A DNA stretch of 64,000 nt, from assembly GCA_051362555.1 (NCBI GenBank), contig CM120641.1, positions 32,804,401 to 32,868,400 on the forward strand, given 5' to 3'. Both the position numbers and the translations under genes were made by a program. The notes beneath the pieces were generated by a model that was not told where the DNA came from, made no database searches, and worked only from the letters and a program-made list of their open reading frames with translations. This document shows positions 14,955 through 60,800 of the stretch, piece by piece. Source of the stretch: Lingula anatina (lineage: Eukaryota > Animalia > Brachiopoda). Every line of letters starts with the position of its first letter. The stretch's first letter is position 1.

Positions 14955-16200
14955 AAACAAGGCAGCAAAGCTGTCAAATGTACAGACAAAAAACAGAAAA
15001 TAAAGATGCAAAATAGGTCATTTTGTCAATTTTGATGCAATAATAAATAATGCTTATTATAGCACTGTCAGTCAACACTGAATTTTAATCATGCACAACA
15101 GGTAACATGGTCAATAACAGGAGTAGACCCAGAGATATTGCAAAATTTACCTGCATAATTATCACTGCTTCCTTATTATTAATCTAGCAGACTGGCTTAA
15201 TCTTTGGGAGTTTACAGGGAAATATCAACAACTGTGCTTTATGTAATCTCATTTAATAACCTATTAATTAGGCAAATGACTTTATAACTCTGAACTTAGC
15301 TTAGTGATACCCAAGGGAAATTTACAGACTGACCCTCTCAAAGGTCTTTCAGGCCCATAAGTCACATCTTAAGAAAAGCACAAAGTAATAATGCACAAAA
15401 TAGGATGCTGTCAATTCTGATGCAATACTATATTACGCTTAACTGCAAAGTCAACATCAAATTTAAATTATGCAAAACAGGTAATACCGATGAAAGTAAA
15501 AGCAGGCCCATGAGAGTTCAAGTTCATACTTAGAAAATGCCAGAATGAGAAAAATGAGAATTTCACAAAAAGTTGCGTTAATTCAATAAAAAATGATAAT
15601 CCAATAGAGCTGGTTTTCTTATTTGAGCTGTATGTCAATCCTAAGAATCATTCTTTTAAGCTAAAAAAAAAATAAGTAACATAGTTTGCTTTTTATCATA
15701 ACGTTTGTGATGACAGTGCACGAAGTTGGCTTTTTGTCAATTTTGATGCAATATTACATAATGATTAACTATAATTACCACCATTTATTTTTATTAATAA
15801 CGTAGTCATTTAGAAAATTTGATTACCACTGGGCTTCATGACCATGGGAGTTCCAAGTCCCACATTGAAAATGCCAATATATGAAAGATAACAACTTCAC
15901 AAACATGTACAACAGAAAAAGAAACCAATTAGATTGCTTTTCCAACACAGGCTGCATTTTAGACCTGTGTTTCTTTCCTGTAAGTTTTAAGAAGAGTAAG
16001 TAACATGGTTTTTCTTTAATGGTCACTATAAAAGCAGTGTCCAAAATAGAGGTTTCTTCATTTTCGTTGCAATATTACATAATGCATAATGACCATCAAT
16101 TTTAATAATGAAATAAAATTATCATGGATATTCAGACTAGCAAAGGTCTTCAAACCCATGGAAGTTCAAAGTCACACCTTGAAAATGTCGATATGTGAAA
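14955..16200 (+). mobile_element. 5' fragment of the large Helentron-associated non-autonomous repeat family
   Basis: Starts AAACAAG...GCTGTCAAATGTACAGAC, matching 41323 onward; further blocks match 36180-37250 and 42210-43250. Confidence 0.8.
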
Positions 16201-20220: not shown

Positions 20221-23200
20221 GCAAAGTAACGCAGCACCACAGCTTTGTATCCAAAAACCAAAATTCAATTCATTACCTGGACATCGGCTAGTTTTATGGA
20301 AGAAATTGGAGTGACAGAAATAGTGACGAAATTGTAAAAGTTTAAGTGAGGCGAAAGAGGATAATTTCTACTAATGATTAAACGAGCATACATGCGAGTC
20401 CATTTAAATTTATTTGCAAGTCTCGCTTTTTTTTAGCGATCTGTACACGACCACTTTTTTTTTACAGAAAAAAAAAAAAAAAGAAAAATAAAATTATAGA
20501 ATATTTTTTATTCAACTATTATGTACAATTTTGAATATTTACAGTTGATTTAAAAAGGACTAATAATCAGTAATGAACTACGTAAACGCAATGAATTAAT
20601 ACATAGCAGTATTATCAAAAGTTCTAAGATTTTCCATCGTCTTCATCTAGCGTCGGAACGCACACAGTCCGATAATGCAGGTCTTATGGTCGGAAACTGG
20701 TACCAGATGCTCTCGGGCCGTGGGGAAAAACCCGTCTAAACCCTTCGTGGGGAATGCCGGGAAAGTGCCCACGCCCGGATAATTCGGTCCTTATAACATG
20801 ACTAAATCGGTTTCTATTGGCACGGCGCTGCGTACAGTTCAAGAATCGTCCCGTTTTAGACAGCATTGTGTGACGGAATAACCTTTGTGTTGACTAACTA
20901 TTCTCTATATATACTATACACGAGGTGAAGCATAAAAACTTATTATTAAAGTAATTCTTATAGAAAAAGGCACTGAAGCCAATAAATAACTATCAAGAGA
21001 CATAACAATTAAACAGAATCATTTTGACTTTATCTTGGAGAATTCATAAATAAAGTTAATCATTTTACAACTGCAAGCATCTTTCAAAACTTGATTATAG
21101 TTCTCTTTATGATAAAATGCAAACAGATTCAAGTAATATGATTATAACTCGGGAATATCAATGATTTCAACTAAACTTTGATATATAATTCGACTTAAAA
21201 TACCAGGTTTCTAAAATGTAACTTTGCACTGAAATCGCAACTACCTGCATGATACAAGTACAGAATAAAGCAAGCTTGCTTCAAAATATTTCGGATCTCA
21301 CATTACACTGTATGACCGCCCATGTAAATTTCAATCTGAATTTTTTTGATCCGGAGAAAAGGTGCATATGTGATGAAGTGGATGTATTTGTCAAGTATAA
21401 CACTTGAGAAAATCTGAATATTAGTAATGTGATCTCTATCTTGAGAGATGACAGCATCTCTCAAGAAGAGCAGACTGTACAAAAAATATAATGAAATATT
21501 TTCTCACACGTAAAATATTTCATTACAGATTTTGCACAATCTATCAATGTAAAATCTCTTCATGTAAAAGCGTTTACATGAAGTCAGATTTTACAAAGAT
21601 GTGAGGGTTTGTTAGTAAGGTTAGTGTGCAGGTTAAGACTTTTTCAAATGCCATACTGACAAACAGCTCCACATCATCAAAAGCACAAATATGAAAAATG
21701 ACCATCTCAGATTGAAACAAAACACAGACGACCACAAGTGGTGGGAATGTTTTTGTGAGCAAAAAACTATCTGCATTCAGAATGTGGATAAAGCAACTCT
21801 ATATTCAAATTTATTAATATAATAATTATAGCAACTGTAGAGGTAGACTTTTCCTACAGAAGCACACATCTTATTCAATTGATCTTGTATATGGAATGAA
21901 GAATTATCTTGAACCTCAGTTTTCTCTTCTGTTATTGAAATAAAATGGTTCACTGCATAAGGCATAAAATACAAATGAAATTTGATGCAATTTCACCTTG
22001 ACATGTTTGTGACCCATGAACCCCAAATATTCTCAGCATCCAAAAGACTGATACATTATTAGACTGTATTCCCACTACATTCAGTACTGTATATTGCCTC
22101 ATTACCATTCCACATTCTTTATATTTGTTTGCAGAACAAGCCGTGTCCTTCAACACCAAAACTCGTGGGATGTCCGAGCATCCATGAAAGTGTCCACAGG
22201 GCTCCTTGCTAACGCTGTACAGTGTTCAACATCTTGGACATTTGGTCTTGGGTCGACGTTATCTGACATCATGCAGGCGTAATTATTGGAAAACTCCCAA
22301 TTCGTAGCCTACAAATGAAATCCAACTTTTACTCAAAAGTATGAAAAGCTATATCGAAAGCTTGCAGTAACTGCAACAAAGAAAGTATATCACTGGTATT
22401 TACACACCGTTAACATTAATGAAAAGCTTGGTTCTTAAAATGATCAGAGCGTTATTTCCAAATGTACAGTGAAATATGCTTCCTTTATTGAAATATATAT
22501 ATATTAACTTTTTAGAGTAAGTAGACAGCAGTCTTCAAAAAATAAATTATTTCAAACATTTGACAAAAAAGTAAGAAAAGATGTTGCTATATTGAATATT
22601 GTAATGTTAGCCTACATGTTAAATTGTTGACTGTCTGTGCTACTTCTAATTCTACTGTTTGTTTACATAGGATATAGTTTTTGATCACTGTCAATAATAA
22701 GAAATGCCATAATACACCAATAATAATACTTAAAAAATTCAGAACCACTTTTCTTAAGTTGTTGATCCCCAATAACTTACAAAGTTATCTGTATAAAGAT
22801 CCCTCAATCCTGAAGAAGTGTTTCATCTGGAGGTTTGGTAGTTGCAATCTTCATTTTTAGAATCCACCACTTTTGGTAGCCTGCAAATTTAAATTATTAC
22901 TTCAAAATGTAATAAAAGTCAACCATTTGTATATGAAATGTGTTTTTAAAGTTTCAGCAGTTTGATGGGAAATAAATATAAAAAGCACTTTTGTCACATA
23001 CTTGGAAAAAACATTCAAGCGAAATATTTTGACATGCCACTGGCGACCTTCAGACTTAATGTCACAATGGGGTATTGCACAAATTAGTTTTAACGAAGGA
23101 AAAGGAACACTAACAGCATTTAAACGACTCTACTCAAAGACAAGTTTAAGTAAAGCCTGAACAATCTAGATCCAGCGGGAGGAGTGTACTAGTATTCCAT

Positions 23201-23529
23201 CAAGTGTTTAATTTGTGAAGGATTTATATGGGAGAGACAAAGAGAAAGTTGAACGTTAGAGTTAAAGAACACGGGAAGGAATAAGAAAGGGTACCGAAGA
23301 GGGAAAAATACACTACAGCCCAAGGTAGCCTTCTGCTACAACGAACCATCACAAAAAACATTGATTGGGAGAGTGCCAAGATTCTACAAAAAGAAAGTGA
23401 CTGGAGAACAAGAGGCGTAAAGGGAGGCATATAAACCAGGAAAATGCCTAACAATCTGAACAATATAGAGAGATGGAAATAAATACTCACTTCTACGGTG
23501 GCCTTTTATTACCACAACCACAGCACTGG

Positions 23530-24207
23530 AGGTGGGGGTGGTAGCTGCTAGTATACAATTTCTGGACCAGTGACAACGTCCCGGAGTCACATTGGTGGTG
23601 GGTGTTGGGGGCGGTAGCTCCAAGTATTCTGGACCAGTAACCACGCCCTAGAGTCACATTGGTGGTGGTGGGTGGTGGGGGCGGTAGCTCCAAGTAATCT
23701 GGACCACTGACCACGCCTCGGAGTCACATTGTTGGTGGTGGGTGGTGGGGGCGGTAGCTCCAAGTAATCTGGACCAGTGACCACGCCCCGGAGTCACATT
23801 GGTGGCGGTGGGTGGTGGGGGCGGTAGCTCCAAGTAATCTGGACCAGTGACCACACCTCGGAGTCACATTGGTGGTGGTGGGTGGTGGGGGCGGTAGCTC
23901 CAAGTAATCTGGACCAGTGACCACGCCCCGGAGTCACATTGGTGGCGGTGGGTGGTGGGGGCGGTAGCTCCAAGTAATCTGGACCAGTGACCACACCTCG
24001 GAGTCACATTGGTGGTGGTGGGTGGTGGGGGCGGTAGCTCCAAGTAATCTGGACCACTGACCACGCCTCGGAGTCACATTGGTGGTGGTGGGTGGTGGGG
24101 GCGGTAGCTCCAAGTAATCTGGACCAGTGACCACGCCCCGGAGTCACATTGGTGGTGGTGGGTGGTGGGGGCGGTAGCTCCAAGTGATCTGGACCATTGA
24201 CAACGTC
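23530..24207. repeat. 70-bp G-rich minisatellite, ~9.5 copies
   Basis: GAGTCACATT recurs at 23584, 23651, 23721, 23791, 23861, 23931, 24001, 24071, 24141. Confidence 0.97.
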
Positions 24208-25664
24208 CTGCAGAATATTGAGACTGTTGAGGATCTGAAAGTTGACGAATGGCATGTCAAAATATTTTGTATGAATGATAAGGTTTTTCCACATCTGTGA
24301 CAAATTAAAAGAGCTTTTTACCTGTGAAAAATGAGCACTGAATTTGCTAGAGTAAATTGTAAATAGAAAACAAATGCCTGCACCGAGTGACAGGTCCCAA
24401 ACATTCTTAAAACAATTGTCTAAGACCTTGCACAAAATGCTCAGTTTGTTGGAGTTGCACTGATAAAAGATTTGTATTATCTATACAATGAATGACAATC
24501 TAGTTCATTTACCCTTATCCTGTCCCATAACTTACCTTGAATGCTCTGTAATCACAACTACTGAAGGGCTCTTGAAACACTATGATATAGCTGACATGGC
24601 TTTCTCCATTTTAGCCTTGTTAACCTTGTTAAAATGGACCGTCATCAGGACAGGCGCTCGCCAATGCTATCTGCCTCAACTACAAAATAAAAAATTATAA
24701 GTCAAAAGTTTCCCTCTTTACTTCTCCCACCCAAATCCAATCTACTAACCATAAATATCTTAATCCTAGGAGTGGGTCATGGGTAAAAGACATTGCCTTC
24801 TGAATGTAAGCTGTCAAATTAATGTGGCTAACGGTTTTTAGTTTTTCAAGGTAAGAAAAATCACTTAAGTGTTTTGTTTTCCCCCAAAAACATGAGTGAT
24901 ATGTACCTTTTAAGGCTTGATAGGTTTCCATCTCTGTGAAACGCCATATGCTTCTGATGCTCCCCCATGCAGCCCCCTAACATACAGACCATGGCAGGAC
25001 TCAACCATGCACCAAGGATTGAATGCGACCCTCTTCTTGCACCTCTTTCAAAAAAGCGGGACTTTATCAGGAATTGCCCTAATTGAGTTCTGTAAATAGA
25101 AAGGAAAATTTGATTAGTTTTCAAAAATTGTATATCAAACGCAGTCTGCAGCCAGAAAAATTGTTGGAATCGGTAGATTTCCAGAATGTGTCAATTTGGT
25201 GACATGGCTGTTAGATTTTTTCTATAAGTATGAAGAAGAGCTTTTGATTTATTTTAAATGTAACTGTTACATCATGATTCGAGAAAAATGTCAAGGTCTT
25301 GTTAATACAAATATTAATGCAATCCAGTCTAGTCCTATTGAACTTTGTATTCGAACCAGTGAATCAAGATTCAGACATCTATATCTAGTTTTTAGGAAAG
25401 AAGGTGGACTGAATGGCCAGTAGGGTGAAAAGTTTATGGCACAGACTGCTGCTGAAAAATTAATTTTAGTGTATTGTTCTCGCCAGTAACACGGGTTACC
25501 TTGCAGGTTTTTCCGCCTCAGTGAAACACCATATGCTTCAGACGCTTCTCCAATGCAGCCTCTTCAACAGACCGTGGCAGGACTCACTGGCACCAAGGAT
25601 TGAGGGATGTATCGGAAGTGTGCACGTGGCCCTCTTCTCCTTGCAGTTGCCATGAAACGTTGGA

Positions 25665-26040
25665 CAGGACTCGCTGGACGCTTCCTAGTGCAGCCACCTC
25701 GTAGACAGACCATGGCAGGACTCGCTGGACGCTTCCCCAGTGCAGCCACCTCGTAGACGGACCATGGCAGGACTCGCTGGACGCTTCCCCAGTGCAGCCA
25801 CCTCGTAGACGGACCATGGCAGGACTCGCTGGACGCTTCCCCAGTGCAGCCACCTCGCAGACGGACCATGGCAGGACTCGCTGGACGCTTCCCCAGTGCA
25901 GCCACCTCGCAGATAGACCATGGCACGACTCGCTGGACGCTTCCTTAATGCAGCCACCTCGTAGACAGGCCATGACAGGACTCGCTGGACGCTTCCCCAG
26001 TGCAGCCACATCAGAGACAGACCATGGCAGGACTCGCTGG
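25665..26040. repeat. 52-bp GC-rich minisatellite, ~7 copies
   Basis: Unit CATGGCAGGACTCGCTGGACGCTTCCCCAGTGCAGCCACCTCGTAGACGGAC (25711, 25763, ...). Confidence 0.97.
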
Positions 26041-26207
26041 CACCAAGGAATGGTCAAAGTAGCTTAAGTGTAGATGTGGGACGTCTCCTTGCAGTTGTGT
26101 TCTGTCAACAGAAAGAAAAATGAATTAATGAATTTTCATACTATGTCAGCACTCTGCAGTCAGGCTTACCTTTAAGTGGTTTCCATCTCATTGAAACACC
26201 ATATGAC

Positions 26208-26478
26208 AAGACTCGCTGGACGCTTCCCCAGTGCAGCCACCTCGTAGACAGACCATGGCAGGACTCGCTGGACGCTACCCCTGTGCCGCCACCTCGTAGA
26301 CAGGCCATGGCAGGACTCGCTGGACGCTTCCCCTGTGCAGCCACCTCGTAGACAGGCCATGGCAGGACTCGCTGGACGCTTCCCCAGTGCAGCCACCTCG
26401 TAGACAGACCATGGCAGGACTCGCTGGACGCTTCCCCAGTGAAGCCACCTCGTAGAGAGACCATGGCAGGACTCGCTG
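26208..26478. repeat. Second array of the same 52-bp unit, ~5 copies
   Basis: Same unit as 25665-26040, separated from it by a 68-nt GT-AG intron candidate (26169-26102, minus strand). Confidence 0.95.
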
Positions 26479-26536
26479 GCTCCAAAGGATGGTCGAAGTA
26501 GCTTAAGTGTAGATGTGGGGTGTCTCCTTGCAGTTG

Positions 26537-27712
26537 TGTCCTGTAAACAGAAATAAAAACGAGATTAGATTTCTTTCATTTCTCAAACTTCCCTTCCAAA
26601 AAGAAAAAAAAATTACATACCTTAAGGAGTGTAGTCGAAGTCCCACAGGTGGCGCCCATCATCTTCTATGTCCTGTAAACAGAATTAAAAACGAGATTAG
26701 ATTTCTTTCATTTCTCAAACTCCCCTTCCAAAAAGAAAAAAAGATTACATACCTTAAGGAGTGTAGTCGAAGTCCCACAGGTGGCGCCCATCATCTTCTA
26801 TGTCCTGTAAACAGAAATAAAAACGAGATTAGATTTCTTTCACTTCTCAAACTCCCCTTCCAAAAAGAAAAAAAGATTACATACCTTAAGGAGTGAAGTC
26901 GAAGTCCCACAGGTGGCGCCATCATCTTCTATGTCCTGTAAACAGAAATAAAAACGAGATTAGATTTCTTTCATTTCTCAAACTCCCCTTCCAAAAAGAA
27001 AAAAGATTACATACCTTAAGGAGTGTAGTCGAAGTCCCACAGGTGGCGCCCATCATCTTCTATGTCCTGTAAACAAAAAATAAAAACGAGATTAGATTTC
27101 TTTCATTTCTCAAACCCCCCTTCCAAAAAGAAAAAAGATTACATACCTTAAGGAGTGTAGTCGAAGTCCCACAGGTGGCGCCCATCATCTTCTATGTCCT
27201 GTAAACAGAAATAAAAACGAGATTAGATTTCTTTCACTTCTCAAACTCCCCTTCCAAAAAGAAAAAAAGATTACATACCTTAAGGAGTGTAGTCGAAGTC
27301 CCACAGGTGGCGCCCATCATCTTCTATGTCCTGTAAACAGAAATAAAAACGAGATTAGATTTCTTTCACTTCTCAAACTCCCCTTCCAAAAAGAAAAAAA
27401 GATTACATACCTTAAGGAGTGTAGTCGAAGTCCCACAGGTGGCGCCCATCATCTTCTATGTCCTGTAAACAGAAATAAAAACGAGATTAGATTTCTTTCA
27501 CTTCTCAAACTTCCCTTCCAAAAAGAAAAAAAGATTACATACCTTAAGGAGTGTAGTCGAAGTCCCACAGGTGGCGCCCATCATCTTCTATGTCCTGTAA
27601 ACAGAAATAAAAACGAGATTAGATTTCTTTCATTTCTCAAACCCCCCTTCCAAAAAGAAAAAAAGATTACATACCTTAAGGAGTGTAGTCGAAATCCCAC
27701 AGGTGGCGCCCA
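26537..27712 (-). repeat. 132-bp tandem repeat, 9 copies; unit = 52-nt exon + 80-nt intron on the minus strand
   Basis: CTGTAAAC recurs at 26541, 26673, 26805, 26936, 27067, 27199, 27331, 27463, 27595; minus strand reads AAG|GTATGT...CTAAT...TTTTTATTTCTGTTTACAG|GAC. Confidence 0.95.
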
Positions 27713-28067
27713 CCAGTTTGCAGTCTGCTTCCTGGACCTGTAATAAAAAGAAACCTGGAAAGCATGGGAATATGCAATGACACTACGACTCCAGCCCACG
27801 ACAGCAAAAAGGTGAAGTATCCTGCGAAGATGACCGAGCGACGATTCCTCGTGGGGAGAAGCGAAGATTTTAGCTGGCCAGCTAAGAGAAACGCCGAATC
27901 CACCGTCTAGACGTCTGCGTGTGCAGGGAACAATTTGTCGAAGAGCGATGCGTTGACGTAGGATGAGTAGAAGATTCGGAGAAATGGGAGTCGACTCCCG
28001 TGTCCTTTGTGCTTGATACAGGGCGCAGCACATGGTATCCGTCCTGTTGCTCTAGATCTGTCCGCTG

Positions 28068-28153
28068 TTGAGTGAACGCACTTTTAAAATTTTGCGCTTT
28101 TATACCTTTGTTGACGTATAGTCACATGATGGCGTTCTTGTTGTCACCAATGG
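28068..28153 (-). promoter_or_regulatory. Pol II core promoter: TATA box, initiator, E-box, CCAAT
   Basis: Minus-strand TATAAAAG at 28104-28097; TCACT initiator with A at 28073 (31 nt downstream); GTCACATGA at 28121-28129; CCAAT near 28147; CpG-rich sequence downstream (27800-28070). Confidence 0.65.
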
Positions 28154-28663
28154 TCAACTTGTTCAAAGGGGATGGCCTTTGATAGTGATGCGCAAAGTTG
28201 GTAATAATATCTTATCAACATATACATTTTCTTTTATATTTTATATTTTGATTATTCTGCCTGTCAGTTTGTTTATAATAAGAGTAATAAGTTCTAAGCA
28301 ATGTCTGTGAAATGTGCAGGCAAATTTGATGAAAATTTCTGAGCAACATACCTTCTCCCTAAAATTTTTATAGGTACGATGTCCGTTAAGCTGGTAGCTG
28401 TGAACTTCTCGCAGGCTACTTTAGTGTGCGTGTATTTGAACACTGATCCAAAATGTGGATAATGTAATTTGGCGTAGGGTGACTGCATTTTTGAGGCAGC
28501 CTGAGGGAGTATGGTTGTTCTGATTGTAGTGAATTGTAGAGAGACAATTGGAAGTACACTGGACTTAGCATGTTCAGTCACCCAAGTACTCTGAAACACA
28601 TTTTGTAATCAGCTGACTTGTTATTCTGAAAAATGAAAAAACAAATTATATTGATTTACAAAA

Positions 28664-28983
28664 CTGGAAGATAGAAACAGTGGATCATATTACTTATGCC
28701 AGGCAGAAGAAACGACTGAATGTATATTTTTATATTCAAAACGTCTACTGATTTAGGTAATAATTAATAGCCTGGAAGATAGCAGCAGTGCATCATATTA
28801 CTAATGCAAGGCAGAAGAAACGAGTGAATGTATATGTCTATATTCAAAACGTCTACTGATTTAGGTAATAATTAATAGCCTGGAAGATAGCAGCAGTGGA
28901 TCATATTACTAATGCAAGGCAGAAGAAACGAGTGAATGTATATGTCTCTATTCAAAACGTCTACTGATTTAGGTAATAATTAA
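28664..28983. repeat. 108-bp tandem repeat, 3 copies
   Basis: CTGGAAGATAG at 28664, 28772, 28880. Confidence 0.95.
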
Positions 28984-36159: not shown

Positions 36160-39100
36160 TTTGCAATATAAAACAAAATTTACCTGCATAATTATCACTG
36201 CTTCCTTATTATTAATCCAGCAGAGAGCTTAACCTTTGGGAGTTTACAGGGAAATATCAACAAGTGTGCTTTATGTAATCTCATTTAATGGCCTATTAAT
36301 TAGGCAAATGACTTTATAACTTTATAACTTAGCCTAGTGAGACCCAAGGGAAATTTACAGACTGACCCTCTCAAAGGTCTTCAGGCCCATAAGTCACACC
36401 CTTAAGAAATGCACAAAACAATAATGCACAAAATAGGAGACTATCAATTCTGATACAATAATACATTATGTTTAACTGCACAGTCAACATCAAATGTTTT
36501 AAAATTATGCACAACAGGTAACACCGACGAAAGTAAAAGCATAAGGCTTCAGGCCCATCAGAGTTCAAGTTTATACTTAAAAAGTGCCAAAATGAGAAAA
36601 ATGAAAATTTCACAAAAAATGCATAAATTTAATAAAAGTGATAATCTAATAGAGCTGGTTTTCTAATATGAGCTGTATGTCAATCCGAAGAATCATTCTT
36701 GTAAGACTAGTTGAAAAATTAGAAAGTAACAGTTTTCTTTCTATAACGTTAATGGTGGCAGTGTACAAGAGGTTTTTTGTCAATTTTGATGCAACATTAC
36801 ATAATGATTAACTGTATAAATACCACCAATTTTTAAATATCTACTATTAAAAACATGGACATTAAAAAAAGGTGATTACCACTGGGCTTCATGCCCAAGG
36901 GAGCTCTAAGTCCCACATTGAAAATTCCAGTATGTGAAAGATAAATATTTTCACAAAAAACCTCTATAACTTCCAGAAAATTAACTAATGAGACAGATTT
37001 TCCAACTGAAGCTGTATTTCAGTCCTATGTTTCTTTCCTTTAAGTGTAAAAAGAGCAAGTGACATGGTTTTCCTTTCACGGTCACTAAGGAGGCAGTGCC
37101 TAAAATAGGGTTTTGTTCAATTTTGATGCAATATTACATAATGCTTAACAGCATAATAACCATCAGTTTTTTAATGATAAAATAAAACTATCATGGATAT
37201 TCACAAAATGTGTCTAGCCCATAGAGTTCAGAAACACTTTGAAAATCCCAAAATCTAAACAAGAGAAACTGTATTAAAAAGAGTTTATTTCCATTTTCAA
37301 TACCTTTTTTACATGAAAAAAAATAATCGATTTACTGTCATTTTTATATGATCAATTAAAATATGTTGCCAAAGGAAAAATATCAATAGAACAAATTTAA
37401 ATGTCCAACTTGCTCCATTCTGAGATTCTTAACTTAGTGAATGATTGAATCTGACGAACTTCAATGATATGAGTTCCCTTCCATTTTTGATACTTTATTA
37501 CACAATGCACAATAAAAGGTGTACTGTCATTTTTATATAATCAACTAACAATATTTTTAAGAAGCAGAAAATGTCAAAACAACACTTTTACATATCTAAT
37601 TTGTTCCATATTGAGACTGTTAACATGCCTTAGAATTAAATCTGAAGAAAAGCCACTTATATGCAAAAAGGCTAATAACTTCATCAAAACTTAACTGATC
37701 AAGCTTATTTTCAAACTTGATCTGTATATTAGTCAGACTGATCACTCCTGTAAGTTTCAAGACAAAAGGCTGATTGGTTTTCCTTAAAATGTGTTATCAG
37801 TGTTGCATATATGCTGAATAATGGAAAAAAAACAGCATAACTTTAAATTTGTAAAAATAGTCCAATCAAGCCAATTTTTGAACTTGACCTGTGTATTATG
37901 AATGTTCATCAGTTCTGTAAGTTTCAAGCCAAAAGGTAAAATGGTTTTCCACTTATCGTGTTATCAGTGCTGCATATATGCTGAGAAAATGCAGAAAATG
38001 GTTCATTTTGTTAATTTTGATGCAATAATAAATCATGCCTACAATAGCACTGTCAATCAACACTGAATTTTAATCATGCACAACAGGTGACATCGTCAAT
38101 AACAGGAGCGGATCCAGAGATATTTTCTGACAGTATTCCAAATTATCTTTGTTGATCCATCCTACATTTTTGATGGTCTTCCAACAGAAAAAAAACAGAT
38201 ACCCATCAATATGAACTTTAAAATCTGAAAGACCCAGAAGACGGCCTCAATCCACCCCTGCAATAAGATTACAGTTTCAGGACCAAATTCACATAATGAA
38301 AATCCCAATATTTGAATAATGATGACAATGCATAAAATAATATTACATAATGTTTAAAGACATAAAAACCAATGCAACTGTTTATGTGGAAATACAGAGA
38401 ATGTGAAGAGCTTCAGGTGGATGGGAGCTGAAAATGCCAGTGTTTGAAAAATAAATTAAAAAGAAAACACAACAAAAATATCCCATTAAAGCTGCTATTC
38501 AAACTTTTAATCTTGCTGTAATAACATGATATGAATAACCCCAATGTGTTTGAGGATAATAAGGCACTGTTATTCAATATTTTTTTCTTTTGTTAACTTA
38601 TTTGCAATATTAAACAACATTTACCTGCATAATTATCAGATTCCTAATTATGTGACACAGTTAAGAGAGCTTAACCTATGGGACTTTACTGGGAAATCTC
38701 AACGTGTGTTTTATGTAATCTTATTTAATGGGCACTTGGAAATTAATTAGGCAAATGATTTTATAGCTCTGAATTTAGCTTGTGACTACCCCAAGGGACA
38801 ATTACCACCATCCATAAACAGTAGCCCCATATAGCACTCTATAGAGCTGCATTGCTTCCAGAACAGAAAACCATCACTCTGATTTTCCAACACAAACTGC
38901 ACGTCAGTCTTACAAAACTTTTCAGTAAGTTTGAGTATCATAAGTAACATGGTTTTTCCTTAATGGTCATTCCGGCAGCCATTTCCAAAATAGGGTTTTC
39001 TTCAACTTTTATGCAATATAACATAATGACCATCAATTTTTAATAATAAAATAAAAGTATCATGGATATACAGAAAATGTGACATGGAAAGGTCTTCAAG

Positions 39101-40256
39101 GCCATGGAAGTTCAGAGTCACACTTTCAAAATGCCAAAATGTACCTGTATACAAGAGATAACTGTATTGAATTGATTTTCTTCCATTTTCAACACCTTTT
39201 TTTCATATAACAAAGTAATCAATTTACTGTCATTTTTAAATGAACAACTGAGAAAATTGTTGACATAGGAAAAATATCAATAGAACAATTTTAAATGTCC
39301 AGTTTGCTCCATTCTGAGATTCTGAACATGGTGAATGATTGAATCTGACAAACTGTAAAGATATGAGTTTATTATTATTTCCATTTTTTTGACACTTTAT
39401 TACACAATTACAGGTTTACCATCTTTTTTATATAATCAACTAACAATATTGTTAAGATGCAGAAAATGTCAAAAGAACACCTTTACATATCTAATTAGTT
39501 CACAGATGAGATTGTTAACATGCCTAAGAATTAAATCAAAGGAAAAAACACTTATATACAAAAAAGGCATAACTTCACCAGAACTGAACCAATGGAGCTT
39601 ATTTTCGAACTCCATCTGTATTTCAGTAAGACTGATCACCCCTGTAAATTTCAAGACAATTGGCCAATTGATTTTCCTTGAAATGCGTTATCGGTATTGC
39701 ATACATGCTAAAAAAAGTGAAAAAACAGCATAACTTCCATAAAATTGGTCCAATCACGCTGATTTTCAAACTTGACCTGTGTATTATGAATAGTCATCAG
39801 TTCTGTAAGTTTCAAGCCAAAAGGTAAAACGGTTTTTCACTTATCGTGTTATCAGTGTTGCATATATGCTTAAAAAAAATGAAAAAAGAGCATAACTTCC
39901 ATAAAAATGGCCCGATCATGCTGATTTTCGAACTTGACCTGCGTATTATGTATATTCATTAGTTCCATAAGTTTCAAGCCAAAAGGTAAAACGGTTTTTC
40001 ACTTATCGTGTTATCGTTGTTGCATATATCCTGAAAAAAGTGAAAAAAACAGCATAACTTCCATATAGATGGCCATATCATGCTGATTTTCGAACTTTAC
40101 CTGCATATTATGAAAGCTCATCAGTTCTGTAAGTTTCAAGCCAAAAGGTAAAACGGTTTTTCACTTATCATGTTATCGGTGGTCAAAGTGCACGGCGACG
40201 ACAACAGACGCAGGTGATGGCTATATGTATAGACACATCTGTGTCTGTACATAAAA
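36160..40256 (+). mobile_element. Composite Helentron-associated non-autonomous element (HINE/DINE-1-like) with ~162-bp internal tandem repeats
   Basis: CATAACTTCC at 39729, 39891, 40053; GACGAC microsatellite then terminal hairpin TATGTATAGACAC-ATCT-GTGTCTGTACATA (40224-40253) followed by an A-run; internal blocks shared with 14955-16200 and 41323-44925. Confidence 0.75.
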
Positions 40257-41875
40257 AGTGCTCATTATTCATCATTTTGCGATATTAATTCCATCTTTGT
40301 TTCCTTCCTTTCTTGTAAGAACAAAACCACATATTATGGATACCAATCACTCAAAGTATTTATTCAAATGACTTAAATGGAAGTTGACTTCCTTCAATAA
40401 ATATTGCACTATTACAACATATGTATGGCTAGTTTTTACAGCACAAGTTGAAATTTTACTAACATGTAAAGTGGTACAAAAATGCACAAGGCCTTGTGCC
40501 TGAATAATTGGGAAAAATACTTCTGTCTAGATGATGCATCTCTGAACATGCATTTCTTGTTAGTATTAAAGACTGTCTATATAATTATCTAATTAAAAAA
40601 AGCCAGCAATCATGGATTTCAGCCGTGCCATAAATGCCAGTAAGTTGCATTTAAAACTTAAATGGAATGTATTTTGCAGCACCAACAAGATTAATTCTTA
40701 TTCATTAGCGATCATTAAAACTTTGTGTTTATAATAGAACTTAATATGATCATTACAATGGAAAGACAAAAAAATGCAAAGTTCATCTTCCTAACAAAAT
40801 GCCACAACCGAACTGAGACTTCAAAAAAGAAAAATCAAAGAAAAGAACAATTCATCCCCAGAAAAAAATAGAAAATACTGTAGCACACGGGCTGTATTTT
40901 CTTAATTATACAACTTGCACAATATTCACAAGTTTCAGGACTTTTCAGAAAGTAGCCTCAATACAAGTAGCAGCGGGGTCTAAGATAATAATTCTTACTA
41001 AACTAAGGCAGTAAATGAAACAGTCCTTGAAGGAAAGCTATAATCAAAGTTGATAGTAGTAACAAGTAACGATAAATTTGGTCTGCCAAGAAATAGGTTA
41101 TTCCAAACTTTCTTACATATCTATTTACATATTAAAATATGTTTCACTTAGAAATGCCAATGTTTTGATGTGGCTACCAGCTTCTATAATCTTAAATGTT
41201 GTTTAGCAAACAATGGAATGAGTTACATTCTTAATAAGGCTAAGAATGAAAAAAATACCTTCACCTTGTGTTTTTTGAAAAACAAAATACAAACACATCT
41301 TAGTCTACGACTTCATAAAAGAGAAACAAAGCTGTCAAATGTACAGACAAAAAACAGAAAATAAAGATGCAAAAAAAAGGCCATTTTGTCAATTTTGATG
41401 CAATAATAAATAATGCTTATAATAGCACTGTCAGTCAACACTGAATTTTAATCATGCACAACAGGTAACATGATTAATAACAGGAGCGGACCTTGAGATG
41501 TTTTCTGACAGTATTCCAAAGTATCTATGTTGATTCATCCTCCATTTTGATGGTCTTCCAACAGAAAAAAATAGATACCAGTCAATATAAACTTAATAAC
41601 CTGTCTTCCAGAAGACCCAGAAGATGGTCTCAATCCACCCCTTCAATAAGATTACAGTTTCAGGACCATGAGAGACCAAAGTCACATGATGAAAGTCTCA
41701 ATATTTGAAAAATGATGACAGTGCATAAAATAATATTATATAATGTTTAAAGACATAAAAAACAATACAATTGCTTATGTGGAAATACAGAAAATGTGCA
41801 GAGCCTCGAGTGGATGAGAGTTAAAAGTCACAAATGCAAGTGTTTGAGAAAAAATTGTAAAGGAAAATATAACAA

Positions 41876-42103
41876 AACTAGAAAACCACCGAGAGTGCAG
41901 ACCTCTGCCAAGGCAGCAATTGTTGATTATTATTGATTGATTATTGAGCCAGACCACCACTAAAAACTAATCATTGTCCTCTTTGGCCCAATTCTGACAG
42001 TTCCTGAAAATTTCAACAAAATCGGTCCATAACTTTTTGAGTTATGTTGATGACAGACAAACAAGGGTGAAAATATAACCTCCTTGGCAGAGCCTGAGGT
42101 AAA
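41876..42103 (+). mobile_element. Small DINE-1/HINE-like element (ACCTCCGCCAAGG family), nested
   Basis: AACTAGAAAA..GCAGACCTCTGCCAAGG ... GACAGACAAAC..GGTGAAAATATAACCTCCTTGGCAGAG; related copies at 55681 and 62747. Confidence 0.8.
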
Positions 42104-42144
42104 TATAATTTCAATGAAGCTGCAATTCAAACTCTTAATCTTTG

Positions 42145-42145
<1 letters not shown>

Positions 42146-42205
<60 letters not shown>
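42146..42205. repeat. (TA)n microsatellite
   Basis: ~30 TA units. Confidence 0.95.
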
Positions 42206-42207
<2 letters not shown>

Positions 42208-45182
42208 CAGAGCTTAACTTTTGAGAGTTTACAAGGAAATATCAACAAGTGTGCTTTATGTAATCTCCTTTAATGGCCTATCAATTAGGCAAATGACTTT
42301 ATAGCTCAGAAATTAGCTAAGTGATACCCAAGGGATATTAACAGACTGACCCTCTCAAAGGTCTTTCAGGCCCATAAGTCACATCTTAAGAAAAGCACAA
42401 AACAGTAATGCACAAAATAGGAGACTACCAATTCTGATGCAATAATACATTATGTTTTACTGCACAGTCAACATCAAATTTTAATTATGCACAACAGGTA
42501 ACAACGACGAAAGTAAAAGCATAAGGCTTCAGGCCCATCAGAGTTCAAGTTTATACTTAGAAAGTGCCAGAATGAGAAAAATGAAAATTTCACACAAAAT
42601 TGCATATATTCAATAATAAATGATAACCCAATTGACCTGGCTTTCTAATTTGAACTGCATGCCAATCCTAAAAATCATACTTGTAAGTTAAAAATAATAA
42701 TAAGTAACACAGTTTTCTTTTCATAATGTTTGCAGTAGCAATGCAAAAATATTGTTGTCAATTTTGATGTAACATTACATAATAAATTATAGAATAATTA
42801 TCACCAATTTTTGATTATTGACAATAAATAGCATGGACATGTAGAAAATTTAATTACCATTCGGCTTCATGTCCATGGGAGCTCCCATTCCCACAATGAA
42901 TATGCCAAAAAGATAATGAATATTTCACTCAAATGTATAACTTCCAGAAAAAGAAGCAAATTAGACTGCTTTTCCAACTCATTCTGCATTTTAGTCCTGT
43001 GTTTCTTTTTTAAAGGTTTGACAGTCATAACACGGTTTTCCCATAATGGTCATCATGGCAGCAGCACCAAAAATTGTGTTTTCTTCTATTTTGATGCAAC
43101 ATTACATAATGCTTAACAGTATAATGACCATCAATTTTTAATAATAGAATATTAGTAACATGGACATTCAGAAAACATGACAAGCAAAGGTCTTCAGGAT
43201 CTTGGAACTTCAAAGTCACACCTTGAAAATGCCAATAAGTGAAAAATTAAATTTTCACAAAAAACTGTTTAACTGCCAGAAAAAATTAACAAACAGACTG
43301 CATTGCCTACTGAAGCTGTATTTTAGCCCCATGTTCTTTCCTGTAAGTTTGAGAACAGTAATTGACATGATTTTTGTTAAATGGTCATCATGAGAGCAGT
43401 GCCCAAAATAGGGGTTTCTTCAAATTTTGATGCAATATTACATAATGTTTAACAGCATAATGACCATCAGTTTTTAATAATAAAATATTAGTATTATGGA
43501 TATTCAGAAAATGTGACTAGCAAAGGTCTTCAGGCCCATGGAACTTCAAAGTCACAACTTGAAAATGCCAAAATGTAAACAAGACAGCACTGTTCTGAAA
43601 TGTTTTTTTTTTTCCATTTTTAACATAAAACAAAATTAACAGTTTACTGCCATTTTTCTATGATCAACTAAGAAAATTGATGAGATGTGAAAAATATCAA
43701 TAGAACAGTGTCAAATGTCCAATTTCCTCCATTCTGAGTTTCTGAACATAGTGAATGATTGAATCTTACAAACTGCAATGATATGAGTTTATTTCCATTT
43801 TTGAAACTTTATTACACAATACACGATAACAAGTTTACCATCATTTTTACAAAATCAACTAACAATGTTGTTAAGATGCAGGAAATGTCAAACAAACACT
43901 TTTATTTATCTTATTAATTAAATAATGAAACTGTTAACATGCCTAAAAATTGAATCTGAGGAAATGTGAAACAAGACAGCACTATTCTGAAATGGGTTTA
44001 TTTCCATTTTTAACACTTTTTTAACATAAAACAAAATTAACAGTTTACTGCCATTTTTATATGATCAACTAAGAAAATTGATGAGATGTGAAAAATATCA
44101 ATAGAACAGTGTCAAATGTCCAATTTCCTCCATTCTGAGTTTCTGAACATAGTGAATGATTGAATCTTACAAACTGCAATGATATGAGTTTATTTCCATT
44201 TTTGATACCTTATTTCACAATACACAATTACAAGTTTACCATCATCTTTTTGTAATCAACTAACAATGTTGTAAAGATGCAGGAAATGTCAAACAAACAC
44301 TTTTACGTATCTTATTAATTATATAATGAGACTGTTAACATGCCTAAGAATTGAATCTGAGGAAATGCGAAAAAACAGCACAACTTATAAAATAATGGTC
44401 CGATTATGCTGATTTTCGAACTTGACCTGCGTTTTAGTAAGATTGATTACTCTTGTGAGTTTCATGACAACAGGCCTATGGGTTTTCCTTGAAATGTGTT
44501 AACAGTGTTGCATATATGCTGAAAAGTGAAGAAAACAGCATAACTACTAAAATAGAGGCCCGATCATGCCGATTTTCGAACTTGATCTGCGTTTTAGTAA
44601 GATTGATTACTCCTGTGAGTTTCATGACAACAGGCCTATCAGTTTTCCTTGAAATGTGTTAACAGCGTTGCATATATGCTGAAAAGTGAAAAAACAGCAT
44701 AAATTCTACAATAATGGCCCGATCATGCTGATTTTTGAACTTGACCTGCGTTTTATGAATATTCATCAGCTCTGTAAATATAAAGCCAAAAAGTAAAACT
44801 GTCTTCCACTTATGGTGTTAACGCTGAAAGTGCACGGCGACGGCGACATGATCGGCGACGGCGACGGCGACGACAGACGCAGGTGATGGCAATATGTACA
44901 GACACATCTGTGTCTGTACATAAAAATAGAAAATAAAGACATTACAAGAAGTTCATAACAACCCGTAGCTTAAATATTCAATAACATAATTTAGTTTTCT
45001 TTCTAAAGAAAACTTTAGTTTAAAAGATTCAGTAATTGATATTCAGTCAAAACTGATCAAATGCCACTTCTGAAATAAATGCATTAAATGAAATAAAGCT
45101 CTGGGTATACTATGAAAAAACAAAGAAAAACAGAAAACCAACTTTTATCCTATACATGTACATCTTTTGAAGAAGACCCTAT

Positions 45183-57822: not shown

Positions 57823-60800
57823 TGTGTGTGTGTGTGTGTGAACGAATCAAGACCAAATAAAGAAATATTTCCGTCCCTATGACCAATATATTCAATATAG
57901 TCAGAATTTCCCCGTCAACTTTTTTCCAATGTCGCCCGCCACCCACCCAGTAGCAAAAAAACCTGGATTCTTCAGTGGGCATCCCATCGTGTGTGTGAAT
58001 GGGTCAGGCCCGTAGCCAGGGGGGGGGGGGGGGGGGGTTCGGGGGGTTCGAAAGAACCACCCTTTTTGCTGGGAAAGGTCCACTCTGGGTAAAATTTGAC
58101 CTATGTAATTGAGAATTTTATGGTAAAAGGTCCACTTTTTCAGAAAACGAACCCCCCCCTCTGAAATTGCTGGCTACGGGCCTGTGGGTCCTTCTCCATA
58201 GATTCATAATCAACTTTTATTTGCTTCTGTTTGTTTAACACACCCAAATAAAGAAAGTAATCTAAACGCTTATATTTATCTATTCCACTTTTATTGCGTT
58301 TACGGTCCAGTATTTATCCAGTGCGAACGTAACCAGTTTGCTTGTGCAGATAACGTCACGTGTATAGCCGCTATGTGGGCGTGTGACCAGGACCCGGACT
58401 GCCCAGATGCGTCAGATGAAAAGAACTGTGGAAGTAAGTAACAGTGTCTTAACTGTTTGTTCTAGATTGTCAAAAAAATGTTAAAAAGTCATAAGCTGCG
58501 AATGCAATGTAACCAAGAGATATGTGGAGTAGTAAGAAAAGAGAAACCGAAGAAATCAAAAACACATAAAAAATGCAAAGCCGTTTATTCTTAATTCTGT
58601 ACTTATGTAAATAAAAAAGCAAAGCAAAACAAAACAAAAATAACACATCAACAGAATTGAAGAAAACTGCCAGATAAAACAGTGTGGATGTTTTTTTCCC
58701 ACCACGCAGTTGTAGACGGCTCGTGCAGTTACTATGAATTCACGTGTGCCAACAAGCAAGAGTGCACTGCCAAGTGGCACGTGTGTGACGGCGACAAAGA
58801 CTGCACCGATGGATCAGACGAAGAGGACTGTGACGGTAAATATAGCTAACCCCTGAAATCTTTCCTTTTCAGCATCTTCATATTCAGAGGTGCCTCTAAA
58901 ATTCAGGTGCTGAAAAAGACATTTAACGAGTTTTTGACCCTAAAAAAATCAACGACTTATTCTAGGATATTCTCCATAGCTAAAATAAGTCCTGTGGGAT
59001 GTTGTTACTATATGTTATCTAAAAAGAAAGCTGGAAAATTTTGAAATATTCCTACCTAGCATTTCGTAAAAAATATCAGTCACACCCGGTAGCTTATATA
59101 ACTAAATATACAATCAAGTAAAGGGAAATTTCTTGTAAATGTGAAAACAGGTATTGTATCTGACAGCCATTCCATGAATGCATTTATTCACCTTGAATAG
59201 ATTACTTACTTTTTTCATTATATTTTATTTCCTTAAGTTACCACATGTGCGCCGTACGAGTTCCAGTGTGCCAATAAAAAGAAATGCCTTAGCAAGACTT
59301 GGATGTGTGACGGCGATGACGACTGTGGAGACGGGTCTGACGAAAAGAACTGCACAGGTGACTTGTTCCTCACTTTCTGAAGTTTTAACTCTATCTTTTC
59401 AAGATACGAAAAATATATTAATTGTGAAATGTGTCTCTAAATCCTGGACAATAAGCCTCTTTTCATTTGGCATTCCTGCCTTTGAAAATCTTCGAAAACT
59501 AATTTTTATGTTTGTAAAACATATTCTTAGCCTACTCAACTCATTTGCTCCCCCAATTCCATATCTATTCTTGATGGATTCCTTTGACTGGATCAAAGAT
59601 ATTTTTGTCTAATTGTTTTCAGTGGTTGGGACCACGTGTAGCTCGTGGGAAATCAGCTGTCCTAACTCTGACCGTTGTATTTCCCGTACTTACATATGTG
59701 ACGGGGACGACGACTGCGGAGACAACTCGGACGAAAAGAACTGCACAGGTTGGTGTTGATTTAAATTTAAAATCCCCTGAAAGGGACAGTATACTGAATT
59801 TTGGCTCAAGAAAAAATACTGTCAACAAAATATATTTCTAGGCTGTGCAAAAGGGCATGCTTTCTAAAAGAAAATCAGGAATATTTCAAACAATGAAAGC
59901 CCTTGATACTTCCTCTTCAAACTTTATTTAGTTTCAACAAAAAGAGAAATGGATATTATTTCATAATATTTTATAATAATAATAATAATAATTTATTTGG
60001 GAATTATTCTTAAAGATCCACATTTTTTACATAGTCTTTTTTTTTCTCTTCCAGTTACTCTCGGGAATGGCTGTCTCGTCCACCAGTTTGCTTGTGCTAA
60101 CAAAAAATGTGTCCCCAGCATCTATCTATGTGACGGAGACAACGATTGCCGGGACGGTTCGGATGAAACCACGGATGTTTGCGTCAGTGAGTGAATACAA
60201 TCGAACTGCATATAGTTTTAGTGCACAAAGGTTTGGTTATTATTTATTCATTCTTAGGATATTGTGACAAGCCTTGGGTTTTGACTGGTTAACGTATATT
60301 TGGCATGAACTGACCATCATAATTGGTAGGTTTCCCCTTCTCTTATTGCATATCAAAGAAAAAACAACAGACGCTGATACACCATACCTTTCCTCTGGTC
60401 TCTATTTTCCTGTTGTTTATCATTTAGATGTCCATGGTAACCGCACATGCGACAAGGACGAGTTTCGTTGTCAGAACAAGCGCTGCATAGATGTGGGTTT
60501 CCGCTGTGACGGAGACAACGATTGCGGGGACAGCTCTGACGAAGCGGATTGCCCACGTGTGTCACTCATTTTATCTACATCATAACATATTACACTTTTT
60601 GACATATTCGTTCAGGATTAACAAAATTGCCTCACGTAGTCTTATTTTAACAGTGCATTCTCATTGTACAATGATTTTTACCATCACACACTCTCTCTGT
60701 CTCTCTCTAGCCCCAACGTGCAGAGCAGGCCAATTCCAGTGCGGTGACGGCAAATGTGTTCCAGGCTTTTATAAATGTGACAACGACAAAGACTGTGATG

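What the first reader, a model, noticed from the sequence alone, without database searches (positions are those of the whole stretch)
26537..27737. Tandem array whose 132-bp unit is a complete microexon plus intron
Seen (minus strand): exon GACATAGAAGATGATGGGCGCCACCTGTGGGACTTCGACTACACTCCTTAAG (52 nt) followed by an 80-nt intron GTATGT...CTAAT...TTTTTATTTCTGTTTACAG. There are nine introns and eight microexons, highly identical, and every copy keeps GT, the branch-like CTAAT and the terminal CAG. The exon has a stop in all three frames (TAA, TAG, TGA). Splicing would turn a 132-bp DNA satellite into a 52-nt RNA repeat, the same period as the neighbouring exonic minisatellite, and release nine near-identical introns. 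Inference: variable exon skipping could tune RNA repeat number, and identical splice sites could allow back-splicing to circular RNA.
Basis: partly seen in the sequence, partly recalled or inferred. Interest (0 to 1): 0.75.

Follow-up and report, generated by a model that had tools for sequence, protein, structure and literature searches.

The report
Brachiopod repeat RNA keeps its introns
In a lamp shell (brachiopod), a likely non-coding gene contains nine head-to-tail copies of one short intron with a tiny exon between them; RNA reads show these introns can be cut out but are mostly kept while later introns are removed, which would likely hold the RNA in the nucleus.

Summary
The array is real: nine 79-80-nt GT-AG introns and eight 51-52-nt exons on the minus strand. 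The flanking MOV10 is 98% identical to Lingula anatina. RNA reads show exon-to-exon joints at the predicted sites in 3 of 4 runs (6, 8, 9 reads). But intron depth is close to exon depth: about 4%, 20% and 18% of junction reads are spliced (depth ratios allow up to 22-37%). Two unique downstream introns are 91-100% spliced in X1/X2. So the main poly(A) RNA carries a 132-nt repeat, not the proposed 52-nt one. It is a roughly 4.4-kb, likely non-coding RNA built from three repeats (132x9, 52x15, 70x9), with three look-alike RefSeq loci on other scaffolds. The shared 52-nt period has no sequence homology. Best reading: a young whole-cassette duplication, akin to 'mirage' minisatellites; its unused donors likely favour nuclear retention (inferred). 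Skipping, circles and function are untested; an intronless DNA copy is not excluded. The scan noted mirages in this genome and a similar fungal RNA before. New variant of a known kind.

The parts
26541..27674 (-). Array of nine 79-80-nt GT-AG introns and eight 51-52-nt exons (132-bp unit); introns mostly retained in poly(A) RNA, spliced in a minority
   Evidence: RNA joints and depths; shares
27675..28220 (-). 5' part of the transcript, running unbroken into the array. RNA depth rises at about 28030-28070, with two-read depth up to about 28220. Its last 39 nt are a near-copy of the microexon's 3' end. The AG before 27737 is not seen used as an acceptor.
   Evidence: depth table; no joint listed into 27737; no sharp start listed (table 6)
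26170..26540 (-). Exon A, with five copies of the 52-nt minisatellite; reached in reads directly from an unspliced last array intron (10 reads of a variant allele or paralog in X1)
   Evidence: (loose ends at 27591); its 3' donor is predicted only
26102..26169 (-). Predicted 68-nt intron; its 3' end resembles the array intron
   Evidence: (score 42 vs shuffle max 35; blastn E 0.012); not covered by a read lay
25500..26101 (-). Exon B, a duplicate of exon A with about eight further 52-nt repeats
   Evidence: 5' ends align, score 116 vs shuffle max 29; RNA depth and donor use
25090..25499 (-). 410-nt intron, efficiently spliced
   Evidence: 29 (X1) and 19 (X2) junction reads; mean intron depth 0.6 and 1.8
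24907..25089 (-). Exon C, a diverged copy of the A/B module
24680..24906 (-). 227-nt intron, spliced but partly retained
   Evidence: 3 (X1) and 15 (X2) junction reads; shares 0.32 and 0.79
24536..24679 (-). Exon D
24235..24535 (-). 301-nt intron, efficiently spliced
   Evidence: 26 (X1) and 27 (X2) junction reads; intron depth near 0
23491..24234 (-). Exon E, with 9.3 copies of a 70-nt C-rich repeat that is in the RNA of X1 and X2; 3' boundary predicted
   Evidence: collapsed depth 151 and 181
22781..22880 (-). Predicted exon F
   Evidence: splice signals only; no reads laid
21800..22370 (-). Predicted last exon, with the only AATAAA/ATTAAA between 22370 and 20600 at 21815
   Evidence: no reads laid

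Best explanation
The array is a young head-to-tail amplification of one complete exon-plus-intron cassette near the 5' end of a spliced, likely non-coding brachiopod RNA; its introns can be spliced but are mostly kept, so the main RNA carries a 132-nt repeat whose nine unused splice donors likely hold it in the nucleus. Shown: transcription on the minus strand, use of the predicted splice sites in a minority of reads, retention in the majority, near-complete removal of two later introns, and a gene built by repeated duplication of exon modules. Inferred: origin by unequal crossing-over or slippage, as for mirage minisatellites; lack of a protein product; U1-dependent nuclear or chromatin retention; and a minor form in which neighbouring introns are removed together, giving the 52-nt repeat. 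I do not claim that the array is under selection; the retention may be a by-product of packing 52-nt exons between 80-nt introns.
For:: exon-to-exon joint (goes back 52, three letters fit either side, as AG|G requires) in X1 6 reads/6 starts, X7 8/4, X9 9/7; depth 10 nt inside the intron 148, 33, 42; first mates on + in stranded X1 (RNA on minus); introns 25499-25090 and 24535-24235 have 29/19 and 26/27 junction reads in X1/X2, with intron depth near zero; in X1, array 6 vs 148 against 29 vs 2 for the 410-nt intron, Fisher p=1e-25 (rough, as depth stands in for unspliced reads); the array donor matches the consensus at 7 of 9 positions, against 6, 6 and 8 for the three downstream donors seen spliced, so a weak donor does not explain retention; exons A, B, C share 5' and 3' ends. 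Non-coding: stops in all frames of the microexon; longest ATG frames 150 aa (retained) and 136 aa (spliced); reads carry 1-, 2-, 7- and 8-nt indels in exons; no credible Pfam family; the three RefSeq look-alikes match the window in shifting frames. Consecutive splicing: the longest short side of a joint is 51-52 letters in all three runs; simulated chance under independent splicing 0.009. U1 sites retaining RNA on chromatin: 10.1101/310433 (abstract and passages; mammalian cells).
Against: No cell-fraction, long-read or DNA data were available, so nuclear location is untested. Reads come from other individuals and probably from paralogs (many reads 90-95% alike), so shares are pooled over loci. 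One unique intron (227 nt) is also partly retained (share 0.32 in X1). Depth ratios give a higher spliced share (intron/exon 0.63-0.78) than junction counts. X4 gave only 2 reads. No sign of selection among copies and no unusual RNA fold (z -0.9 to +2.1). Skipping the whole array would open a 255-aa frame in this haplotype, though read indels at 27924 and 27970 lie inside it.
Confidence: 0.55

Rival explanations
1. The array introns are simply the last to be spliced (detained). Retained reads are nuclear intermediates, and the final exported RNA is the fully spliced 52-nt-repeat form.
For: Joint reads look consecutively spliced (side 51-52; simulation p about 0.009); splice signals look strong; spliced share differs between runs (X1 vs X7+X9, p=4e-4).
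Against: The retained form dominates steady-state poly(A) RNA in all three informative runs. The difference between runs may reflect alleles or paralogs rather than regulation.
Confidence: 0.15
2. The junction reads come from an intronless 52-bp tandem copy elsewhere in the genome (processed copy, other allele or paralog), and this array is never spliced.
For: The family has several loci; loose ends show the microexon in contexts absent from the window; an intronless copy would also give back-to-back joints; no DNA run and no genome were available (table 5b not given).
Against: The missing 80 nt are exactly the GT-AG interval, which a processed copy would itself owe to splicing. The joint recurs in three samples of two studies. 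In X7 a different upstream exon is joined to the same acceptor (4 reads).
Confidence: 0.12
3. One reading: splicing is the normal fate, and exon skipping or back-splicing tunes a 52-nt RNA repeat matched to the neighbouring minisatellite.
For: The joint exists; identical sites make skipping and circles possible in principle.
Against: Spliced reads are a minority; array depth per copy is about that of unique sequence, so wholesale skipping is not dominant; no homology and no significant pairing between the two 52-mers. Only poly(A)/oligo-dT or unspecified libraries were laid, so circles were not sampled.
Confidence: 0.1
4. The RNA makes a product: short peptides (each spliced junction creates a 30-codon ATG frame, and the 52-nt minisatellite is open in all frames) or small RNAs from the introns, as in snoRNA host arrays.
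For: RefSeq annotates three related loci as uncharacterized proteins; non-coding hosts with repeated introns exist in mammals (PMC8162545, passages).
Against: Those models read the shared modules in different frames; only 3 hits, all Lingula, among 266 candidates of 87-279 aa; no Rfam match in the window; the intron has no significant fold and its ends do not pair; the introns are mostly not excised.
Confidence: 0.08

Closest known systems
'Mirage' minisatellites of amphioxus Adh3 and globins BflGb6/BflGb9 (PMC3087553; passages read)
   Same: Tandem copies that carry splice signals, near-identical by concerted evolution; units up to about 160 bp; attributed possibly to unequal crossing-over.
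   Different: Mirages copy one exon-intron boundary in coding genes and are reported not to disturb regular splicing. Here the unit is a whole exon plus a whole intron in a likely non-coding gene, it stays in the RNA, and its sites are used in a minority.
SmPoMuc exon-2 repeats of Schistosoma mansoni; spidroin and SOWgp exon-intron repeats (PMC2576457; passages read)
   Same: Head-to-tail units of one small exon plus intron, over 93% identical, in a multi-locus family.
   Different: Those are about 1-kb units with an in-frame 27-bp coding exon. Here the unit is 132 bp, the exon has stops in all frames and the introns are mostly retained.
SNORD116 host transcript (PMC8162545; passages read) and rat Bsr/RBII-36 (title seen in that reference list; details recalled)
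   Same: Non-coding gene made of tandem exon-intron units; the host RNA accumulates near its transcription site.
   Different: Their introns carry box C/D snoRNAs and are excised to release them. The 80-nt intron here has no Rfam match and is mostly kept.
FIRRE with its exonic RRD repeat (PMC4820808; passages read); Xist-type repeat lncRNAs (recalled)
   Same: Spliced RNA made largely of repeats (about 60% of the model); repeats as candidate nuclear-retention modules.
   Different: RRD copies are dispersed exonic local repeats with a tested role. Here the repeats are tandem, one of them includes its own intron, the family has several loci, and nothing functional is tested.

Membership tests
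Mirage minisatellite | Tandem repeat spanning an exon-intron boundary with splice signals | tested here: met
   Each unit spans both boundaries
Mirage minisatellite | Spare copies do not disturb regular splicing and are left out of the mRNA | tested here: not met
   Copies stay in poly(A) RNA and their sites are used in a minority
Mirage minisatellite | Copy number varies between haplotypes | not testable with these tools
   No DNA run or genome held; depth ratios too coarse
Coding exon-intron arrays (SmPoMuc, spidroin type) | In-frame exon encoding a protein repeat | tested here: not met
   52-nt exon with stops in all three frames in 7 of 8 copies
Coding exon-intron arrays (SmPoMuc, spidroin type) | Near-identical exon-plus-intron units that are spliced | tested here: met
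   97% matches; joints in 3 of 4 runs, minority only
snoRNA host arrays (SNORD116 host, Bsr) | A known snoRNA in each intron | tested here: not met
   No Rfam match at gathering score; 80-nt intron without significant fold; an undescribed small RNA is not excluded
snoRNA host arrays (SNORD116 host, Bsr) | Non-coding exons | tested here: met
Mirtron | Intron folds as one hairpin pairing its two ends | tested here: not met
   Two separate weak hairpins, z -0.50 and -0.94
Repeat-built nuclear lncRNA (FIRRE/Xist type) | Spliced RNA made largely of internal repeats, without a conserved frame | tested here: met
   non-coding status is inferred, without ribosome data
Repeat-built nuclear lncRNA (FIRRE/Xist type) | Nuclear or chromatin localisation that depends on a repeat | not testable with these tools
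   No fractionated RNA or imaging
Repeat-built nuclear lncRNA (FIRRE/Xist type) | Sex-linked or chromosome-wide regulatory role | not tested
   Tissue and sex of the runs are not given; X4 has 2 reads against 231 in X1, cause unknown

The most novel reading that the evidence does not exclude
A lamp-shell family of repeat-built nuclear lncRNAs in which a tandem exon-intron array is a built-in localisation switch: kept, it displays nine U1 sites in a 132-nt repeat and tethers the RNA on chromatin; spliced out together, it becomes a 52-nt repeat and the RNA is released, with the ratio set by tissue or stage.
Probability: 0.15. Interest if true: 0.75.

Novelty: new variant of a known kind. Interest (0 to 1): 0.42.

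Why it matters
It is an RNA-backed case of a minisatellite whose unit is a whole exon plus intron in a likely non-coding gene, and it shows that nine strong-looking introns can stay mostly unspliced while later introns are removed. That makes it a natural test of how short exons between short introns limit splicing, and of whether retained donors keep an RNA nuclear outside vertebrates. It also points to a multi-locus, repeat-built RNA family in Lingula that RefSeq lists as uncharacterized proteins. If the array is neutral, it is one more product of a genome prone to duplicating splice junctions, and of modest interest.

Tried and rejected
No whole genome is held, so paralogs and an intronless copy could not be searched in DNA. 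No RNA holder was listed in the index; nine raw-read runs of the same species label were offered, of which five were laid (X1, X4, X7, X9; X1, X2, X7, X9), each read to about 6-30%. Rfam: 0 matches. Folding of intron, exon, unit and both minisatellites: none better than shuffles. Pairing between the four repeat units: none significant in 10 pairs. Homology of the microexon to the 52-nt or 70-nt minisatellite or to exons A/B: not above shuffles. Pfam hits of the plus-strand 215-aa frame across the array have no stretch passing on its own and come from repetition; RNA there is minus-strand. An upstream exon at 28624-28352 spliced to 27737 was my first model; no such joint is listed and the RNA runs unbroken into the array. 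FASN homolog search did not name the lineage. Two loose-end motifs are not in the window. Earlier scan notes: none near, none by sequence, none in relatives. Literature: ten searches; the Lingula/brachiopod lncRNA listings (20 of 32 and 12 of 20 titles shown) held nothing on this locus, and two searches returned no paper. Zhuo et al. 2007 on introns from tandem arrays is not held; only its title was seen, in PMC3087553's references. No supplements were read.

Full report
1. Observation. The array is as described: on the minus strand, nine introns of 79-80 nt alternate with eight exons between 27674 and 26541. Every intron starts GTATGT, holds CTAAT and ends TTTACAG. Seven exons are identical 52-mers with a stop in each frame; copy 6 is 51 nt and open in one frame. 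The exon-exon junction is not in the window.

2. Setting. The window is animal DNA: fatty acid synthase (to about 14.4 kb, plus), this locus (about 28.1 to 21.8 kb, minus), MOV10 (35.4 to 32.1 kb, minus), a PDZ protein that I read as PICK1 (label recalled), and LDL-receptor-like repeats. The MOV10 piece is 98% identical to the Lingula anatina protein and 68% or less to the other 63 hits, so this is a lingulid brachiopod. No whole genome is held.

3. Is it spliced? Four RNA runs were laid on 27520-28663, which holds one unit, so that reads of all copies pile up there. X4 gave 2 reads; X1, X7 and X9 gave 231, 45 and 59. In stranded X1 the RNA is on the minus strand. An exon-to-exon joint at the predicted sites is listed in all three: 6, 8 and 9 reads from 6, 4 and 7 starts. 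It is the only joint listed besides the unit-length ones (14, 2 and 6 reads that pass unspliced from one unit to the next). So the predicted splice is seen.

4. How often? Depth ten bases inside the intron is 148, 33 and 42, which gives spliced shares of about 4%, 20% and 18%. Junction reads need anchors and are undercounted; intron-to-exon depth ratios of 0.78, 0.63 and 0.68 set upper limits of 22-37%, and those ratios are themselves lowered by the edge of the stretch. Intron depth is 7.6-9.3 times the unique upstream depth, close to nine retained copies per molecule (5.3 times against X1's downstream exons). Control (24136-25725): the 410-nt and 301-nt introns have 29/19 and 26/27 junction reads in X1/X2 with near-empty introns (91-100% spliced); the 227-nt intron is partly kept (32% and 79% spliced). 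The same lay detects 52-nt go-back joints by the dozen in the minisatellite, so the tool is not blind to them.

5. The spliced minority. The longest short side of a joint is 51-52 letters in each run, exactly one exon. With independent splicing, some reads should extend into retained introns on both sides; my simulation gives 0.13, 0.37 and 0.19 per run, 0.009 together (a first, looser version gave 0.07, 0.25, 0.09). This hints that neighbouring introns are removed together. An intronless DNA copy would look the same, and no DNA run was available.

6. The gene. RNA starts at about 28030-28220 and runs unbroken into the array; my first idea of an upstream exon spliced to 27737 is not borne out. 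Downstream lie exons A and B (52-nt minisatellite, 15 copies), C, D and E (70-nt repeat, 9 copies), and two predicted exons. The retained model is about 4.4 kb, roughly 60% repeat, at a rough 9-16 reads per kb per million in X1 and about 2 in X7 and X9. Exons A, B and C share their ends, and the array intron's 3' end resembles two later introns: the gene grew by serial module duplication, and the array is the youngest burst. The microexon and the 52-nt minisatellite are unrelated in sequence and do not pair better than shuffles.

7. Coding? Longest ATG frames are 150 aa (retained), 136 aa (spliced) and 255 aa (array skipped). Reads carry frame-breaking indels in exons (1 and 7 nt at 27970 and 27924; 2 nt at 24580; 8 nt at 24915; 1 nt at 25683-25687). 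A search with the minisatellite frame found three proteins among 266 candidates, all L. anatina RefSeq 'uncharacterized' models, on scaffolds of 36, 346 and 687 kb, while MOV10's is 1.67 Mb. They read the shared modules in different frames. I take them as paralogs (or haplotigs) of a non-coding family; this is inference. One model, P0124, appears to translate through a short retained intron (weak match to the array intron, E 0.14).

8. Mechanism. Most likely (0.55): a cassette duplicated head to tail by unequal crossing-over or slippage; each copy kept working splice sites; 52-nt exons between 80-nt introns splice poorly (inferred; a predicted pairing of the purine tract with the pyrimidine tract is a second candidate but not significant); the main RNA keeps nine good donors, which in mammalian cells hold RNAs on chromatin through U1 (10.1101/310433, abstract and passages). 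Transcription, minority splicing and majority retention are shown; origin, cause of retention and nuclear location are inferred. Selection is not shown.

9. Known kinds. It works like a mirage minisatellite in origin (PMC3087553, passages) but is not one, as the copies stay in the RNA. It has the anatomy of SmPoMuc repeats (PMC2576457, passages) without coding, and of snoRNA host arrays (PMC8162545, passages) without a known snoRNA. It resembles FIRRE in being repeat-built (PMC4820808, passages), with localisation untested. Ten paper searches showed no account of this locus; the library lacks most subscription journals, and no supplements were read. The scan's own notes report many mirages in this genome and a fungal non-coding exon-intron array; I did not check them, but the first gave me the mirage lead.

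10. Verdict. Observation confirmed, interpretation partly supported, new variant of a known kind, interest 0.42. The boldest open reading, a splicing switch between a chromatin-held 132-nt form and a released 52-nt form, has probability about 0.15 and would deserve 0.75.

Noticed in passing
window 28380-28663 and upward, plus strand: In stranded run X1, reads of the opposite orientation start at about 28380-28570 and reach depth 14 at the end of the laid stretch: a divergent plus-strand transcript heading into the 108-bp x3 repeat (28664-28983) and towards the MOV10 3' end.
   Followed up: no
window 27715-27757: X7 and X9 have almost no depth at 27715-27753 and X7 shows reads joining 27757 to 27607: those individuals seem to lack the first partial unit, so the 5' edge of the array differs between alleles or paralogs.
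   Followed up: partly
window 27596-27600 (loose ends): The microexon occurs in reads behind two upstream sequences that are not in the window: a different exon joined at its acceptor (X7, 4 reads) and about 104 unrelated letters before the last bases of the intron (X1, 4 reads).
   Followed up: partly
window 25665-26479: The 52-nt minisatellite is open in all three frames on the RNA strand, and reads show many more unit variants than the window holds (loose-end agreement 0.6-0.9), pointing to hypervariable alleles or more loci.
   Followed up: partly
P0123, P0124, P0125 (RefSeq LOC106164805, LOC106153014, LOC106173768): Three 'uncharacterized proteins' of L. anatina are probably mis-called frames of the same repeat RNA family.
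   Followed up: partly
window 24620: Ten X9 reads leave the window sequence inside exon D and continue for a median 87 letters unlike the laid stretch; X7 and X9 lack the 70-nt repeat altogether.
   Followed up: no
window 15000-16200 and 36500-44840: Dispersed repeat family with internal 160-162-bp tandem units; looks like a transposon-borne satellite (label recalled).
   Followed up: no
window 18400-18270, minus strand: A short CpG-containing stretch ending in a GTAAGA donor, possibly the first exon of another transcript between this locus and FASN (seen).
   Followed up: no
window 58380-63456, plus strand: At least twelve single-module LDL-receptor class A-like exons, some recently duplicated with their introns.
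   Followed up: no
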